This document shows, in pieces, positions 54,601-63,600 of a stretch of 64,000 nucleotides of DNA (its first letter is position 1; every line of letters starts with the position of its first letter). The position numbers were made by a program. This DNA is from Podarcis vaucheri (Eukaryota). The DNA lies in the NCBI GenBank assembly GCA_965113315.1, contig OZ220367.1. One strand, written 5' to 3'.

Positions 54601-57600
54601 TCATTTTTGTGTTCTGCATTTAAATGTTCATGGCATAAACCTCATGACAACATAGTGAGTTCACACGATCACTCTTTCGAAACGCTGACCTCTAAACAAG
54701 ATTTCCTGAAGTTGTAACTTACCCTTTTCTAACCACAATTCACTTATGAACTATTCCCCTTAAAAAAAGGACTTATGAATATGATCTTACTGTGAGTGGA
54801 ATAAGAAATGCTTTTGGCTGCTCCAAACACTAAAATAAAGTTAATCTGACCTTTTAAAAAGAGCCCTCTCCATTTTAACCAGCAGAATTGCTTTACATTT
54901 TGTCTTTACTGAAACAATCAGAGGAGAAATCTAATTTGAGTTTGAATAGATGAGCTGTCACACTCTAAATGTGCATACACAGTACCTTCACTGACATTAT
55001 GTCAATTGTATTTTTCTTCTTTTGAATACAAAAAAGGAGATAGCCCCAGTGCTTAAAATAACAAGTGAGAAACAAAGGCTCCTTTTCGTTAACCACCTAT
55101 AAGGACCTGAAAATACCTTGTTAGAAGGAACAAAGGCAACATTGCCTCTGTGTAGTAGCTAAAGCTCCAGCCCTTTCTGTCTGGCCAGGAATCAGGTATA
55201 AAGAGCCAGTTAAGAAACCCATGGGAAGTGTGAAAAAGGCAGAGCCAAAGTCTTCTTTCCTAGCTTCAAGCCATGTGAACTGTTCAGAATCAGAGCAATC
55301 TCAGCATGACTCCTGTCGCCACGCTATTGCATTGCTAGGAAATAATACAAGTGTGGTGCTTGGAGCTTTTGAAAGCCATCGGGATTGAGAAATCCTAGAA
55401 AGTTATTCTGTAAAAATATCACACACTGGGGATAAAGTAATATTCAAAATGTCTTTATGTATTTCTTTTTTAAAAACTATATGTGTCCTTTGATAATAAT
55501 ATCAGGGTGTGTTTTGAATAATTTTCTATATAGCGTGTTCTCATAAAAGAGAGAGCACGTGTTGCGGATGGGGCCGAACAAAACCCCCAGTTAGTGACCA
55601 GGCCATTGATGGCAATGGGCTGGAGTAGATTGGAAGAAGTTGTTACTGGGGCAAAATTGATGTTGCCAATTTAGGGGTGGGGTCAGACCCCTTATATAAG
55701 CAGGGTCCACAGCTTTCTCTTTCTCTTTCGCTGTGGACATCGGATCACATGGAGCACTTGGACTGTCTGGAGGACAGTGATGCAAACTTCTCATTGGTTA
55801 CATTTCTTTATTTCCCCCTTCTTTTAATCCTCTTTAGTCCCTTAAATAATTTAATTCCCCCTTTTCCTGTTCAATTTCCCACCCCACCCCTTACCCTGCC
55901 CTGTGGGAAGATTCTCCCTGTATCTGTGGCTTGCCTTTCTTTCGCAAAAAGGTTTCCCCCATTTCTCCTGTTGTAAATTGTGGGGCTAGTCAGGGCTGTT
56001 CCCAGCTTAGCTGGAATCACTTTCGTTTATAGCACCCCGAAGGTTGGCTTTATTTGAGTGTGTGCAGCGCTGTTGGCCAAATTTTAATCTAGCCTTGGGC
56101 GGGAGCACTATTTTGAGTTCCTTTAATATTGCTATGAGACTAAGATTCTCAAGAGCAGAGGCATGGAGGCCTATTCGGCCTGCGCATAACTTCCGAGCCT
56201 AAGTATGCTACAGGTAGCAGTTAATTGTTAAGTCTCTGACCTCTCTATAAGAATGTACCTGCTTGCAGGCTCAGTTGCCGCTAATGTATATCTGAGGCAG
56301 ACAGAGGGCGGCAGAGGCTCTCTGTGCCTCCAATGACTATGAGCACTCCGTATATGCTCTTGAACTATGCTGTTTCTGAACAAGTTTATTTTCTTTAAGT
56401 TTGTTTTGCCCTGATAGTGGCGACTGCCATTTTAGAGGCGAGCCATTGTGGTTTAGTGGCTAAAGTGTAGGACTAGGACCTGGGAGACAGGGTTCATATC
56501 CCCCTCTTAGCCATTGTTATAACAAAACAAAACAAACTGCTCCTTTTGGGCTATTCTGTTGCTGGGTAGTTCGGCCCATTTGTGATAAAAGAACTTTGGG
56601 TTTCTTGAAGGGGTGCTTCCCTCTAAAAGGGCAAGCAGGGGTGCCTGGACAAGCTGTGGGCTGCCTCAACTCTGCTATTTCACTGGAAACATTTATGCCT
56701 GGCCTAGCAGGTGATCCAAGGGCTTTGCCCTAGAATTCGATGGCCTGGAAGCATTTCCGGCCTGAATAGTGTCCCCATGTGGTCCACGAAGCATTGGTTT
56801 CACCAGTTCCTTACATTGTTTAGTTTTTGCGGACTATGACTGGGCTTTTGCAAATGCCTCAAGAGCTTGCCTCTCCTGCAGGGGATGACTTGTGGACGCC
56901 CCAGCTGTCTTCTTCCAGAAGGAAGCATCTTCGAAGGCTGCAATCCAGGAGGAGGGCAAAGAGGAGCAGGGATCATGATTCAGACATCACCTTGGACCTC
57001 TACAGGGGTCAGGGTGAGGCTGTCCTGGGTCTTTAGGGATCGTCCTGGATAGCTCAGCTGGTCAGCGCATAGTGCCGGTAATGCCTAGGTTGCAGGATTG
57101 GTCCCTATATGGGACAGCTGCATGCTCCCCCATTGCTCTACCTGGACACTTAGGTCCAGTCTCGAGGGCCTTTTGGTGGTTCCCTCACTGCGAGGGATGT
57201 AACAGGCGCCACGTTTGCAATATGCAAGCGGGAGAAAGCACCTTTGTGTGCCCGCACTGCAGTTTGCTCTGTGTGTTGCAGGGCTCAGCGCTGCACGGGC
57301 TGCATTTGCATTGCATTGCGTGAGAGATTTGCATTTGCATTGCACGGAGGTTGTGTGCATTGCACAGAGGGTGTGTGTGCATTGCACAGAGGGTGTGTGT
57401 GCATTGCACAGAATGTGTGTGTATTGCATAGAGTGTGTGTGCATTGCACGGAGGGTGTAGTGGCATTGCACAGAGTGTGTGTGTGTTTTTTGTGTTGTTG
57501 TTGTTTTTTGCATTGCACAGAGAGTGCATTGCACAGAGTGTGTAGTTGCATTGCATGGAGGGTAGTTGCATCGCACAGTGTGCGTTTTTGCATTGAACGG

Positions 57601-60600: not shown

Positions 60601-63600
60601 TATTGCACCCTGCTATTTTCTTCAAGACTGTTCCCCTCTTTGGGGCAGATGGGGGGTGCATCTTTCCCCTATGGGGAACGACACCTGGCGGGATGCGATT
60701 GCCTTGGGATTCATTGCTCCCCCACAATGTTGCTGGTACTGACAATATGGTGGGGCCCAGTCGTCAGTGCTGCCCTGCTGAGGTCAGGTGCAGCTAGTCA
60801 GGAACCAGTGCCTAGACAAACTACCACCAAAGAGGCCGGTAAGCATGTTAATAAGGAAGTGTAAAATAATAAAATAAAATAAAATAAAGAATAATAAAAT
60901 TCTTCAGGTCGGGCCGCTATCCGTATCTGGATAGTAGGGCACAGTATTGTGCATTGGGCTGCGGACAGAGCTCGTCAGTCTGGACTGGGCGATGGCCTGG
61001 GCTTTCCGCAGCACGTACAGTTGTCCTGGATCTCCAGAAGGGGGATGCTGTGGAGGGAATTCTTACCTCTCATGCAACGGCGTGTCCTACGGTTTGGCCC
61101 TCCTTCGGCGATCATGGTGCAGCTCGGGGAGAACGATATGGTTTCCTCTTCCTGCTATGGGCTGCGTGCTGCCATATTACAGGACCTTGGAGAGCTGGCG
61201 GCACTGGTGCCGTCAACTAAGCTAATTTGGTCACAGCTATTGCAACGCCACATTTGGCGAGGTAGTCCTTGCCCAGCCGCCACCGAACGTGTAAGGAAGC
61301 GGATTAATTCTGCGGCAAGCAAGCTGGTGGTGAATCTGGGCGGGTCTGTGATCCCTCACCCTCTGATTTCATTCAAGGCGATTGAATTTTATAGGGATGA
61401 CGGGGTTCATCTCTCGCCAGTTGGGAATGATGTGTGGTTGGATGCTATGGTGTCCAGGCTGAGGGTGTGGCTTAATTTGTGAGTGGTTGGCGGCGAGCGT
61501 AAGGGCTCGAATGGCGGTTAGGCATTGGTTAAAATTGGTTGGTGGAGGGGTATGGATTGGCTGTGCCTGCCCCTCCAATGCTGCTGCAGACGGGTATTCC
61601 GTTAAAGGAATTCTGAAGCTTACCATCCCCCTCGTCCAAACCCTGACGGCAGGGTGCGGGCCGTGTAAGCTTCAAGGAACATGCGCGGAGCAGTGAGAGT
61701 CTGTGACGCAGCTCCATCTGACTCTGACCATGTTTCCTCCGGGACTGGCTACGGAGTCAGTGCTGTCCCCCCAAGGCGGGGGGGGACAGGTAGTCATAAC
61801 CAATGCCTAAGCAACCACTCTCAATTTGTATAAAAATAAAGTTGTGGCCAAAATTATGCCAAAAACCTTAAACAAAAATTACGTGTGATGTCTGAGTTAT
61901 TGGGGTAGGGGTTTTGGGGGACCTCAGCACGCAAAGCGTGTTCTCATAAAAGAGAGAGCACGTGTTGCGGATGGGGCCGAACAAAACCCCCAGTTAGTGA
62001 CCAGGCCATTGATGGCAATGGGCTGGAGTAGATTGGAAGAAGTTGTTACTGGGGCAAAATTGATGTTGCCAATTTAGGGGTGGGGTCAGACCCCTTATAT
62101 AAGCAGGGTCCACAGCTTTCTCTTTCTCTTTCGCTGTGGACATCGGATCTCCCGCCCGCCCTCCCTTGATTTGGGCTTGCGCTTTGACCTTGCTCTGCCT
62201 GTCATGGGGTCGTTCGCCTTGGTGCGGGGGCCCAGTAGGAATTTGTCCAATTGGCTGATTAGTGCGTGCCTTTTGGGTTTTGCCTACTGCTTAGCAAATC
62301 GTCACAACTTGTAAGGTTGGCGGTTAGGCATTGGTTAAAATTGGTTGGTGGAGGGGTATGGATTGGCTGTGCCTGCCCCTCCAATGCTGCTGCAGACGGG
62401 TATTCCGTTAAAGGAATTCTGAAGCTTACCATCCCCCTCGTCCAAACCCTGACGGCAGGGTGCGGGCCGTGTAAGCTTCAAGGAACATGCGCGGAGCAGT
62501 GAGAGTCTGTGACGCAGCTCCATCTGACTCTGACCATGTTTCCTCCGGGACTGGCTACGGAGTCAGTGCTGTCCCCCCAAGGCGGGGGGGGACAGGTAGT
62601 CATAACCAATGCCTAAGCAACCACTCTCAATTTGTATAAAAATAAAGTTGTGGCCAAAATTATGCCAAAAACCTTAAACAAAAATTACGTGTGATGTCTG
62701 AGTTATTGGGGTAGGGGTTTTGGGGGACCTCAGCACGCAAATAGCAGACAGATGAAGAATCAGAAGTTCTTTCTTTTTATTTTTTCTTCCTTTCTCTCTT
62801 CTCTCGTTTTTTCTCCCTTTTGGTTTCTGTTTTTATTTAGTTTTATTATTTTTGATAAAAAGATATTGGACATTAACCTTATTACATTTTCTTTCAAACT
62901 TTAATAATAGTAGATGTGCATGAGACAAAAGGATGTCTGGAATTTGATTGGCAGAGTTGTTGCTATTTGCAGTAAGCAGCCCTTCCAGGGGGCAAATAAT
63001 AGCTGTGGGGAGGACCAGGAGTGCTTCTCTGATCCAGACTGAAGCACATTCCAGTTGGAAGGTCCATACAGCTTCTTTTCCTTCAAAACAAAAGCAGCCA
63101 GCTTTGACAAAGCTTCTAAAATAAGTGTGACTAACGTAACACTTTGTTTGGATCTAATCAATCCCAATTCTGTGTTCTAAATGTGATTGTGATGTTTTGC
63201 TAGGGAGTCAAGACGAAACCAGAACTGATGTGTATTCACCGATGTTGTTAATGTGTTATGCTTGACAAAATTTTCATAAGGAGTTGGGTTTCTGAGCATA
63301 TTTTTGCCCTTGCTGGTTTATATTTCTTCCAATGGCCAAAAATAAATCTGTACTGTTTCATCCTTTACAAAAATGTGACATGCACGTTAAAAAGTGCTAA
63401 GTAAAACTGACGAATCTTGCATCTTCTTTTCTAGGTTAAGCTAGATAATTTTGCAAAGCCAGATTTTATGCTCTTTGAACATTGAGTCCATTGAGTAACT
63501 CAGCTTCATGTCTCAATTATTTAATTCCAAGTCCACGGAGAGATTCTTAAAATAACGGCTTCAGAGGCCCAATGCCAAGAATTGGGATGGTAGCAGAGCA

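What the first reader, a model, noticed from the sequence alone, without database searches (positions are those of the whole stretch)
55533..62738. Recently mobilised Ngaro-type element with pristine split repeats but dead replication genes
Seen: A1=A2 (214 bp) and B1=B2 (421 bp) with no differences visible. The interior gag, RT/RNaseH and YR are full of stops and frameshifts, the RT core is deleted, and the region contains a SINE head and a minisatellite. Known: Ngaro elements have A1-ORFs-B1-A2-B2 split direct repeats, and the replication model regenerates the paired repeats each cycle. Inference: this is a non-autonomous element moved recently in trans by an active, possibly undescribed, squamate Ngaro family.
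Basis: partly seen in the sequence, partly recalled or inferred. Interest (0 to 1): 0.85.

Follow-up and report, generated by a model that had tools for sequence, protein, structure and literature searches.

The report
Defective Ngaro retrotransposon with identical repeats
A 7.2-kb tyrosine-recombinase retrotransposon copy in a lizard-like genome has perfectly identical end repeats, broken replication genes and one unbroken esterase reading frame, which suggests that it was copied recently with borrowed enzymes.

Summary
The repeats are real. A1 55532-55746 equals A2 61935-62149 (215 bp) and B1 61512-61935 equals B2 62318-62741 (424 bp), with no mismatch or gap. The order is the Ngaro split-direct-repeat order, except for a unique 168-bp spacer between A2 and B2.

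The interior holds, all on the + strand:
- an RT C-terminal end plus RNase H remnant (8 frameshifts, 4 stops);
- a tyrosine recombinase remnant (7 frameshifts, 3 stops);
- a decayed SGNH hydrolase copy;
- a second hydrolase frame with no break that keeps every invariant residue.

No RT core and no gag were found. The SINE head is unverified.

Interior decay together with 0 differences in 639 repeat positions means the repeats were made after the decay. The best reading is a non-autonomous Ngaro-type copy made recently with enzymes supplied in trans. I could not test trans-mobilisation, sibling copies or an autonomous partner, because no eukaryotic genome collection was on hand.

This is a new member of a known kind. 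Interest is moderate, raised somewhat by the selectively preserved hydrolase.

The parts
55532..55746 (+). A1, the 5' split direct repeat (215 bp; 214 bp if the shared junction base is left out). It holds a TATA-like 'tatataa' at 55693-55699, about 47 bp before its 3' end.
   Evidence: 100% identical to A2; sequence read.
55747..57310 (+). 5' interior with no detectable coding similarity. It includes two tRNA-like box-A/box-B stretches seen by eye (about 56437-56520 and 57047-57130). It also includes a 59-codon ATG-started open stretch, 56836-57012, that ends at a donor-like cagg|gtgagg (57013|57014).
   Evidence: Pfam: no family. blastx against the fetched proteins: nothing below E = 1. Sequence read. 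No tRNA by ARAGORN or Rfam. Open stretch and its weak similarity to relatives' leaders.
57311..57940 (.). Minisatellite: 22-bp unit, about 28 copies, 72% matches.
   Evidence: Tandem Repeats Finder; the repeat finder families D1, D2 and D4.
58067..58943 (+). Remnant of the RT C-terminal end plus the RNase H domain; broken gene (8 frameshifts and 4 stops against P0045).
   Evidence: A 55-aa stretch of it found 20 proteins at E <= 1e-3. 18 of those 20 were scanned with Pfam; 6 carry RVT_1, RT_RNaseH or RVT_3. tblastn bounds. Break counts. P0045 is a Podarcis muralis protein.
58950..59865 (+). Tyrosine recombinase remnant that covers the whole structured domain; broken gene (7 frameshifts and 3 stops against P0039). 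6 of 7 checked catalytic-site codons are still present.
   Evidence: tblastn with P0039 and P0040; counts; catalytic sites. P0040 passes Pfam Phage_integrase.
59886..60703 (+). Hyd-1, a decayed SGNH hydrolase copy. It is a broken gene with 1-3 frameshifts, 8-9 stops and one insertion of about 300 bp. It keeps 22-25 of 26 family-invariant residues.
   Evidence: tblastn; counts; invariant residues. 62-64% DNA identity to Hyd-2.
60710..60900 (+). One copy of a 190-bp direct repeat with an A-rich end, directly upstream of Hyd-2. Its partner (87% identical) lies inside the Hyd-1 part.
   Evidence: sequence read.
60898..61482 (+). Hyd-2, an unbroken SGNH hydrolase frame (194 codons plus a stop). It has no ATG upstream of the catalytic Ser and is preceded by an acceptor-like ttcttcag|g (60907|60908).
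   Evidence: 38 homologues at E <= 1e-3. 0 frameshifts, 0 stops and 0 indels over 191 codons; 161 of 191 identical to P0001. 26 of 26 invariant and 49 of 52 near-invariant columns kept. Model pLDDT 94.5; best PDB matches are SGNH esterases.
61512..61934 (+). B1, the internal copy of the B repeat. It holds AATAAA at 61835-61840 and a 10-bp perfect hairpin stem at 61763-61789.
   Evidence: 100% identical to B2; inverted repeats; sequence read.
61935..62149 (+). A2, the internal copy of the A repeat. The B1|A2 join reads cacgc-aaa-gcgtg, 5-bp inverted arms around a 3-bp centre (61928-61940).
62150..62317 (+). Unique 168-bp spacer between A2 and B2; it is not part of the canonical B1A2B2 drawing.
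   Evidence: No other match in the window at word size 7; sequence read.
62318..62741 (+). B2, the 3' terminal repeat.
   Evidence: 100% identical to B1.
55520..55531 (.). Left flank of the insertion (AT-rich). Joined with the right flank from 62742, the inferred empty site reads as a 10-bp TA-rich palindrome. There is no target-site duplication beyond the junction trinucleotide.
   Evidence: Sequence read. G+C is 0.37-0.40 in the flanks against 0.50 in the element.

Best explanation
The region is one copy, 7,210 bp long (55532-62741, + strand), of a Ngaro-type tyrosine-recombinase retrotransposon that can no longer replicate by itself.

Shown:
- the split direct repeats are identical;
- the RT core is undetectable;
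- the RT-end/RNase H and YR frames are broken;
- a second SGNH hydrolase frame is unbroken;
- A carries a TATA-like box near its 3' end;
- B carries AATAAA;
- the B|A join is a small inverted repeat;
- the flanks reconstruct a TA-rich palindrome without a target-site duplication.

Inferred:
- a defective master copy was transcribed from the promoter in A1 to the poly(A) signal in B2;
- the RNA was reverse-transcribed by the RT of an autonomous relative;
- the untranscribed parts of A1 and B2 were restored from the internal B1-A2 join;
- the product was inserted at the B|A junction by a YR supplied in trans;
- this happened recently enough that no substitution has since struck 639 paired repeat positions.
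For: - The repeats are 100% identical over 215 + 424 bp. The order A1 ... B1-A2-(spacer)-B2 is the order that papers give for Ngaro (passages of PMC9210276; PMC8547959).
- RT-end/RH, YR and hydrolase lie in this order on one strand, with no room for a methyltransferase: RH ends by 58943 and YR starts at 58950.
- Amphibian Ngaro elements carry an SGNH ORF after the YR (PMC9210276).
- Break counts are 12 in 271 aligned RT/RH codons and 10 in 290 aligned YR codons.
- An internal 190-bp repeat pair is only 87% identical, with 21 mismatches and 4 gap openings in 194 columns. The A and B pairs show 0 differences in 639 positions. The interior rearrangements therefore predate the event that made the repeats.
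- G+C is 0.50 in the element against 0.37-0.40 in the flanks, with sharp edges.
- RT/RH, YR and hydrolase relatives exist in Podarcis, Lacerta, Anolis and Phrynocephalus annotations. A squamate lineage that could supply enzymes is therefore plausible.
Against: - No sibling copy and no autonomous partner could be looked for. Nothing else in the 64-kb window matches the element, and no eukaryotic genome collection was on hand.
- By my own inference from the TATA and AATAAA positions, one cycle restores only parts of A1 and B2. Full-length identity therefore needs a young master or extra homogenisation.
- A2 and B2 are separated by 168 unique bp, which the canonical drawings do not show.
- The closest RNase H relative (P0042, an unnamed record) is about 89% identical in protein, 76 of 85 aligned residues, and the closest hydrolase relative is 84% identical. 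No near-identical relative that would prove recent activity was seen.
- Identity produced by assembly or polishing cannot be excluded from the sequence alone.
Confidence: 0.6

Rival explanations
1. This is an old, in-situ decayed Ngaro insertion whose A and B pairs were made identical later by gene conversion or unequal exchange between the repeats at this locus. No recent retrotransposition is involved.
For: The repeats lie close together: the B copies are 806 bp apart and the A copies 6.4 kb apart. The interior looks old. Conversion between nearby direct repeats is a known process (general knowledge, recalled).
Against: Two separate pairs would each have to be converted over their full length, with sharp edges that coincide exactly with the Ngaro repeat bounds. 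The 190-bp internal repeat pair only 350 bp apart stayed at 87%. G+C and CpG content of the element still differ from the flanks.
Confidence: 0.12
2. This is an assembly or polishing artefact. Near-identical repeats were made identical by consensus polishing, or the B-A-spacer-B stretch is a mis-joined duplicate.
For: Perfect identity over 639 bp is what polishing with multi-mapped reads can produce. The window alone gives no read support. The window has no N run, so no gap marks the place.
Against: The arrangement is the specific interleaved A..B-A..B order of a known element class, and the junction signals fit it. A random mis-join would not give that order or place the edges at a palindromic join.
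Confidence: 0.08
3. This is a composite of two lineages. An older part (RT-end/RH, YR, Hyd-1) and a younger 3' part (the 190-bp repeat, Hyd-2, B, A, spacer, B) were joined by template switching or recombination. Hyd-2 would then be intact simply because it is young, not because it is kept by selection.
For: Hyd-1 and Hyd-2 are only 62-64% identical in DNA. Hyd-1 still keeps 22-25 of 26 invariant residues, so they are diverged paralogues rather than a fresh duplication. Hyd-2 has 0 breaks, whereas the break rate of its neighbours predicts about 7.5 (my arithmetic; P about 6e-4). A second hydrolase is not part of the four-ORF Ngaro plan described in PMC9210276.
Against: The RNase H remnant has a relative at about 89% protein identity (76 of 85 aligned residues, P0042), no further away than Hyd-2's best relative at 84%. 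The 'old' part is therefore not clearly older. A1 is identical to A2 although it flanks the supposedly older part, so any joining must have preceded the last copying event. This makes the rival a refinement of the best explanation rather than a replacement.
Confidence: 0.2

Closest known systems
Ngaro-like elements of Xenopus tropicalis, DIRS-53_XT and DIRS-54_XT (PMC9210276; passages seen)
   Same: Both have split direct repeats A1 ... B1, A2, B2, with both pairs 100% identical in a DIRS-53_XT copy (A 236 bp, B 152 bp). The order is gag-like, RT/RH, YR, then an extra SGNH hydrolase ORF after the YR. There is no methyltransferase. The hydrolase has relatives in amphibians (Lissotriton), and the YR half of a Podarcis relative (P0008) has a relative in Xenopus laevis (P0041).
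   Different: Here the RT core and gag are not detectable and RT/RH and YR are broken. There are two hydrolase copies. B is longer (424 bp). A 168-bp unique spacer separates A2 from B2. A minisatellite and SINE-like stretches occupy the 5' half.
Zebrafish Ngaro, the founding elements (Goodwin and Poulter 2004; not seen, known to me only through citations in the passages read and from recall)
   Same: Type elements for the A1-[ORFs]-B1A2B2 plan and for YR-mediated insertion. Some Ngaro encode a hydrolase (PMC7192593 passage).
   Different: No reference sequence could be fetched, so neither identity nor phylogenetic placement was measured.
Ngaro elements of Cafeteria burkhardae (PMC8547959; passages seen)
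   Same: A1-[ORFs]-B1A2B2 structure, about 6-7 kb, G+C-richer than the surroundings. Isolated AB repeats occur.
   Different: Those are protist elements with intact ORFs and no hydrolase reported in the passages seen. Here A2-spacer-B2 resembles an AB unit with 168 bp between the halves.
DIRS1-like elements of Anolis carolinensis (PMC3266345; passages seen)
   Same: They are YR retrotransposons of a lizard genome and insert without a target-site duplication.
   Different: DIRS1-like elements have inverted terminal repeats, an internal complementary region and a methyltransferase domain. None of these is present here: 0 inverted repeat pairs of 40 bp or more, and no space or Pfam match for a methyltransferase.
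Non-autonomous derivatives of LTR retrotransposons (LARD/TRIM type; recalled, not looked up)
   Same: They work the same way as proposed here: the ends and cis signals are kept, the coding interior is lost or replaced, and the copy is made by enzymes of an autonomous relative.
   Different: That is a different order of elements, with LTRs and a DDE integrase. This copy keeps one unbroken gene.

Membership tests
Ngaro-like retrotransposons (order DIRS) | Split direct repeats: A1 at the 5' end; B1, A2 and B2 at the 3' end; A1 = A2 and B1 = B2 | tested here: met
   215-bp and 424-bp pairs, both 100% identical, in that order. Departure: a 168-bp unique spacer lies between A2 and B2.
Ngaro-like retrotransposons (order DIRS) | Tyrosine recombinase downstream of RT/RH on the same strand | tested here: met
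   YR remnant 58950-59865 directly after the RH remnant. The relative P0040 passes Pfam Phage_integrase. 6 of 7 catalytic-site codons are kept.
Ngaro-like retrotransposons (order DIRS) | Reverse transcriptase and RNase H | tested here: inconclusive
   The RNase H and the C-terminal end of RT are present as a remnant. No RT core was found in any of the 182 stop-free stretches. I had no full-length RT comparator.
Ngaro-like retrotransposons (order DIRS) | No methyltransferase domain between RH and YR | tested here: met
   The RH alignments end at 58928-58948 and the YR alignment starts at 58950. No Pfam match.
Ngaro-like retrotransposons (order DIRS) | gag-like first ORF | tested here: not met
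   Nothing was detected in 55747-57310. In a defective copy this lowers completeness, not descent.
Ngaro-like retrotransposons (order DIRS) | SGNH hydrolase ORF after the YR (vertebrate Ngaro) | tested here: met
   Hyd-1 starts about 20 bp after the YR remnant, and Hyd-2 follows.
Ngaro-like retrotransposons (order DIRS) | Insertion without a target-site duplication, at a junction trinucleotide | tested here: met
   The flanks show no duplication. The join is 'aaa', the left end reads 'ata' and the right end 'aaa'. The trinucleotide model was taken from a passage of PMC7192593 that describes DIRS elements.
Ngaro-like retrotransposons (order DIRS) | RT and YR fall in the Ngaro clade together with reference elements | not testable with these tools
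   No tool fetches reference Ngaro proteins, and Repbase and Dfam were not on hand.
DIRS1-like retrotransposons | Inverted terminal repeats, an internal complementary region and a methyltransferase domain | tested here: not met
   0 inverted repeat pairs of 40 bp or more in 53000-64000. No methyltransferase.
LTR retrotransposons / endogenous retroviruses | Two whole LTRs, a DDE integrase and a target-site duplication | tested here: not met
   The repeats are split and interleaved. No rve or other integrase family was found in Pfam. There is no duplication of the target.
SGNH/GDSL hydrolases (for Hyd-2) | Catalytic Ser, Gly, Asn and His blocks and the SGNH fold | tested here: met
   The blocks GHS, GEND and DGVH are conserved in 18 of 18 aligned sequences, including the window copy. 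The model has pLDDT 94.5, and its best PDB matches are SGNH esterases with TM 0.64-0.74. The Pfam Lipase_GDSL score is below the cut-off, 17.7 against 23.6 bits.
Non-autonomous family mobilised in trans | Several copies that share the same defective interior, plus an autonomous partner that shares the ends | not testable with these tools
   Only this 64-kb window of the genome was available, and nothing else in it matches the element.

The most novel reading that the evidence does not exclude
This is a non-autonomous Ngaro lineage that has given up its RT and recombinase but keeps one working gene under selection: an SGNH esterase. The esterase would be expressed from the element's own promoter by splicing a short basic leader (open stretch 56836-57012, donor-like site at 57013|57014) onto the hydrolase exon (acceptor-like site at 60907|60908; both are phase 1). 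If so, either the esterase is the one function a parasitic copy must bring itself, or it is a host-recruited enzyme riding on a mobile promoter. The same acceptor appears to be reached from different upstream exons in lacertid gene models. That would mean Ngaro elements of squamates express their downstream ORFs from spliced subgenomic RNAs.
Probability: 0.2. Interest if true: 0.65.

Novelty: new member of a known kind. Interest (0 to 1): 0.42.

Why it matters
Tyrosine-recombinase retrotransposons are among the least studied mobile elements of vertebrates. One 2016 comparison states that Ngaro is absent from lizards (PMC4746887, passage). A copy with perfect split repeats suggests that Ngaro-type elements have been active recently in a lacertid-like genome. 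It also suggests that defective copies can be propagated, as is known for LTR elements and LINE/SINE pairs but little documented for this order. The contrast between broken RT/YR frames and an unbroken hydrolase gives a descriptive handle on the unknown role of the Ngaro hydrolase.

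Tried and rejected
- Pfam on whole six-frame translations was not accepted because of stop codons. Stop-free stretches were used instead.
- A word-based protein search with the 55-aa RNase H stretch against longer proteins found nothing. A PDB sequence search with it found nothing. The Atlas gave only sub-threshold leads, 0.82-0.86. The exhaustive HMMER search then found relatives.
- The N-terminal 280 residues of the YR comparators P0039 and P0040 have no match in the window. 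They are low-complexity.
- Recalled short RT/RH motifs gave only two isolated matches and were not used as evidence.
- tRNA origin of the 'SINE heads': there is no support from ARAGORN or Rfam. No box-B-like match at up to one mismatch lies inside the element.
- Spacer homology: the 168-bp spacer matches neither the sequence after A1 nor the sequence before B1. A simple tandem dimer with an internal deletion is therefore not supported.
- Leader-exon homology: the similarity to the N-terminal extensions of P0004 and P0010 beats 100 of 100 shuffles. It disappears with composition correction, and a (GAA)n microsatellite elsewhere in the window scores the same. It is kept only as a lead.
- Rest of the window: 122 stop-free stretches of 75 aa or more gave no Pfam family, so no host gene was identified.
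- The first literature search on squamates was badly framed and uninformative.

Full report
**Observation**

A BLAST self-comparison of 54000-64000 gives two perfect direct repeat pairs:
- 55532-55746 = 61935-62149 (215 bp, 0 mismatches, 0 gaps);
- 61512-61935 = 62318-62741 (424 bp, 0 mismatches, 0 gaps).

The repeat finder gave the A pair and the first 300 bp of the B pair. The window has no N. Nothing outside 55332-62941 in the window matches the element. The order is A1, interior, B1, A2, a unique 168-bp spacer (62150-62317; no other match), B2. Nothing in the window or among the fetched records was taken for human.

**Interior**

Pfam was run on every stop-free stretch of 30 aa or more in 55000-63200: 84 on the + strand and 98 on the - strand. 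It gave only one relevant, sub-threshold match, Lipase_GDSL on 60898-61479 (E 0.004). Comparators were therefore collected from the window's own pieces.

- *Hydrolase.* The hydrolase frame found 38 proteins at E <= 1e-3 among 338 candidates. They come from Podarcis, Lacerta, Phrynocephalus and the newt Lissotriton, plus unnamed records at up to 84% identity.
- *YR.* Some Podarcis muralis models carry half a tyrosine recombinase in front of the hydrolase. With that half, three longer proteins were found. One of them, from Anolis carolinensis, passes Pfam Phage_integrase.
- *RNase H.* A 55-aa stretch found 20 proteins at E <= 1e-3 in the exhaustive search.
  - 18 of the 20 were scanned with Pfam. 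Six carry RVT_1, RT_RNaseH or RVT_3 (only P0055 is above the curated cut-off). Five are unrelated repeat proteins and seven have no family.
  - Two of the six are named Podarcis muralis and Phrynocephalus forsythii proteins.

A frameshift-aware alignment that printed only counts and bounds gave the following.

| Part | Bounds | Comparator | Identical / aligned | Frameshifts | Stops | Other |
|---|---|---|---|---|---|---|
| RT C-terminal end + RNase H | 58067-58928 | P0045, residues 59-340 | 129 / 271 | 8 | 4 | |
| YR | 58950-59817 | P0039, residues 281-574 | 143 / 290 | 7 | 3 | |
| Hyd-1 (first hydrolase copy) | 59886-60700 | P0001 | about 90 / 172 | 1-3 | 8-9 | one insertion of about 300 bp, in which most of the stops lie |
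| Hyd-2 (second hydrolase copy) | 60907-61479 | P0001 | 161 / 191 | 0 | 0 | no indel |

- The YR remnant still has 6 of 7 checked catalytic-site codons (the list of sites is recalled).
- No RT core was found, but I had no full-length RT comparator.
- No gag was found in the 1.56 kb after A1.
- The minisatellite is confirmed.
- The 'SINE head' rests on box-A/B-like motifs seen by eye. ARAGORN and Rfam do not support it.

**The hydrolases**

- Hyd-2 keeps 26 of 26 columns that are invariant in 17 relatives, and 49 of 52 near-invariant ones. These include the GHS, GEND and DGVH blocks.
- Its model has pLDDT 94.5 and pTM 0.90. Its best PDB matches are SGNH esterases, first a bacterial sialic acid esterase (TM 0.70).
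- With the break rate of its neighbours (22 breaks in 561 codons), about 7.5 breaks would be expected in 191 codons. The chance of none is about 6e-4 (my arithmetic).
- Hyd-1 is only 62-64% identical to Hyd-2 in DNA but keeps 22-25 of 26 invariant residues. The two are diverged paralogues, not a fresh duplication.
- A 190-bp repeat with an A-rich end occurs once inside Hyd-1 and once directly before Hyd-2. The two copies are 87% identical.

**Ends and signals** (read directly from the sequence)

- A holds 'tatataa' 47 bp before its 3' end.
- B holds AATAAA 94 bp before its 3' end, and a 10-bp perfect hairpin stem.
- The B1|A2 join reads cacgc-aaa-gcgtg. The chance of 5-bp inverted arms at a fixed place is about 1 in 1000 (my arithmetic).
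- The left end reads 'ata' before A1 and the right end 'aaa' after B2, and there is no target-site duplication. Taken together, the flanks give a 10-bp TA-rich palindrome.
- This fits the junction-trinucleotide idea quoted for DIRS elements in a passage of PMC7192593.
- The element has G+C 0.50 against 0.37-0.40 in the flanks.

**Age argument**

Zero differences in 639 paired positions puts the divergence between the copies below about 0.5% (95% Poisson bound, my arithmetic). At an assumed neutral rate near 1e-9 per site per year (assumed, not from a call) this is at most a few million years. The interior carries 22 frame breaks in the RT/RH and YR remnants, an internal repeat pair at 87%, and a minisatellite at 72% matches. 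These changes must be older than the event that made A1 = A2 and B1 = B2.

**Mechanism and rivals**

The best reading (0.6) is a defective Ngaro-type copy. A transcript would run from A1 to B2 and be reverse-transcribed, and the product would be inserted by enzymes of an autonomous relative. The untranscribed parts of A1 and B2 would be restored from the internal B1-A2 join. The anatomy is shown. The RNA route and the supply in trans are inferred.

Rivals:
- in-situ homogenisation by gene conversion (0.12);
- an assembly or polishing artefact (0.08);
- a composite of two lineages, in which Hyd-2 is merely young (0.2; this refines the best reading rather than replacing it).

**Splice lead**

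Hyd-2 has no ATG before its catalytic Ser. It is preceded by an acceptor-like ttcttcag|g. A 59-codon ATG-started open stretch (56836-57012) ends at a donor-like cagg|gtgagg. Both sites are phase 1.

Lacertid gene models reach the same glycine before the hydrolase core from three different upstream contexts:
- a basic leader;
- the first half of the YR;
- the end of the YR.

The exons were examined one by one, and the joined product was neither built nor searched. The similarity of the leader to relatives is weak and largely compositional.

**Comparison with what is known**

- Papers give the Ngaro plan as A1-[ORFs]-B1A2B2, and report an SGNH ORF after the YR in amphibian elements. In one Xenopus copy both repeat pairs are 100% identical (passages of PMC9210276; PMC8547959; PMC4157794; PMC13465315).
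- DIRS1-like elements, known in Anolis (PMC3266345 passage), differ by inverted repeats and a methyltransferase. Both are absent here.
- In the held library, 'Ngaro' with 'squamate' gave 4 papers, 3 of them listed. 'Ngaro' with 'lizard' gave 15, 14 of them listed. 'Ngaro' with 'SGNH' gave 2.
- In the passages I read from five of these papers I saw no description of a squamate Ngaro family. One of them states that Ngaro is absent from lizards (PMC4746887).
- I did not see Goodwin and Poulter 2004 or Poulter and Goodwin 2005.
- Supplements were closed. The supplementary tables of PMC9210276 may bear on spacer and ORF details.

**What stayed unchecked**

- Sibling copies, an autonomous partner, presence or absence in other individuals, and read support.
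- Dfam and Repbase.
- Clade placement of the RT and YR.

**Verdict**

The finding is a new member of a known kind, with a moderately interesting twist in the preserved hydrolase.

Noticed in passing
window 60898-61482, and 56836-57014: The unbroken hydrolase frame lacks an ATG before its catalytic Ser and sits behind an acceptor-like site. A donor-like site of the same phase ends a short ATG-started basic open stretch 3.9 kb upstream. Podarcis and Lacerta gene models join different upstream parts (a basic leader, or the first half of the YR) to the hydrolase at the same glycine.
   Followed up: partly
window 59886-60703 and 60898-61482: There are two diverged SGNH hydrolase copies in tandem (62-64% DNA identity), whereas the described Ngaro plan has one. 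The decayed copy still keeps most family-invariant residues.
   Followed up: yes
window 62150-62317: A unique 168-bp G+C-rich spacer lies between A2 and B2. It has no match elsewhere in the window and is not shown in canonical Ngaro drawings.
   Followed up: partly
window 61928-61940, and the flanks at 55520-55531 / 62742-62750: The B|A join is a small inverted repeat around 'aaa', and the inferred empty target is a 10-bp TA-rich palindrome. Together they look like a recombinase site pair.
   Followed up: partly
window 54171-54254: A stretch with box-A-like and box-B-like motifs lies in a G+C-rich block about 1.3 kb upstream of the element and may be a SINE. Exact box-B matches also occur at 27308 and 47644.
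   Followed up: no
window 50098-50859 (- strand): A 254-codon stop-free stretch lies in a G+C-rich block (0.62). It has no Pfam family and no usable Atlas hit, and may be a CpG-island-type region rather than a gene.
   Followed up: partly
window 57334-57411: The minisatellite gives a weak, sub-threshold Rfam match to mir-652 (23 bits against a gathering score of 73). I take it for chance.
   Followed up: no
window 4056-4108: A perfect (GAA)n microsatellite attracts spurious matches from basic low-complexity protein segments.
   Followed up: yes
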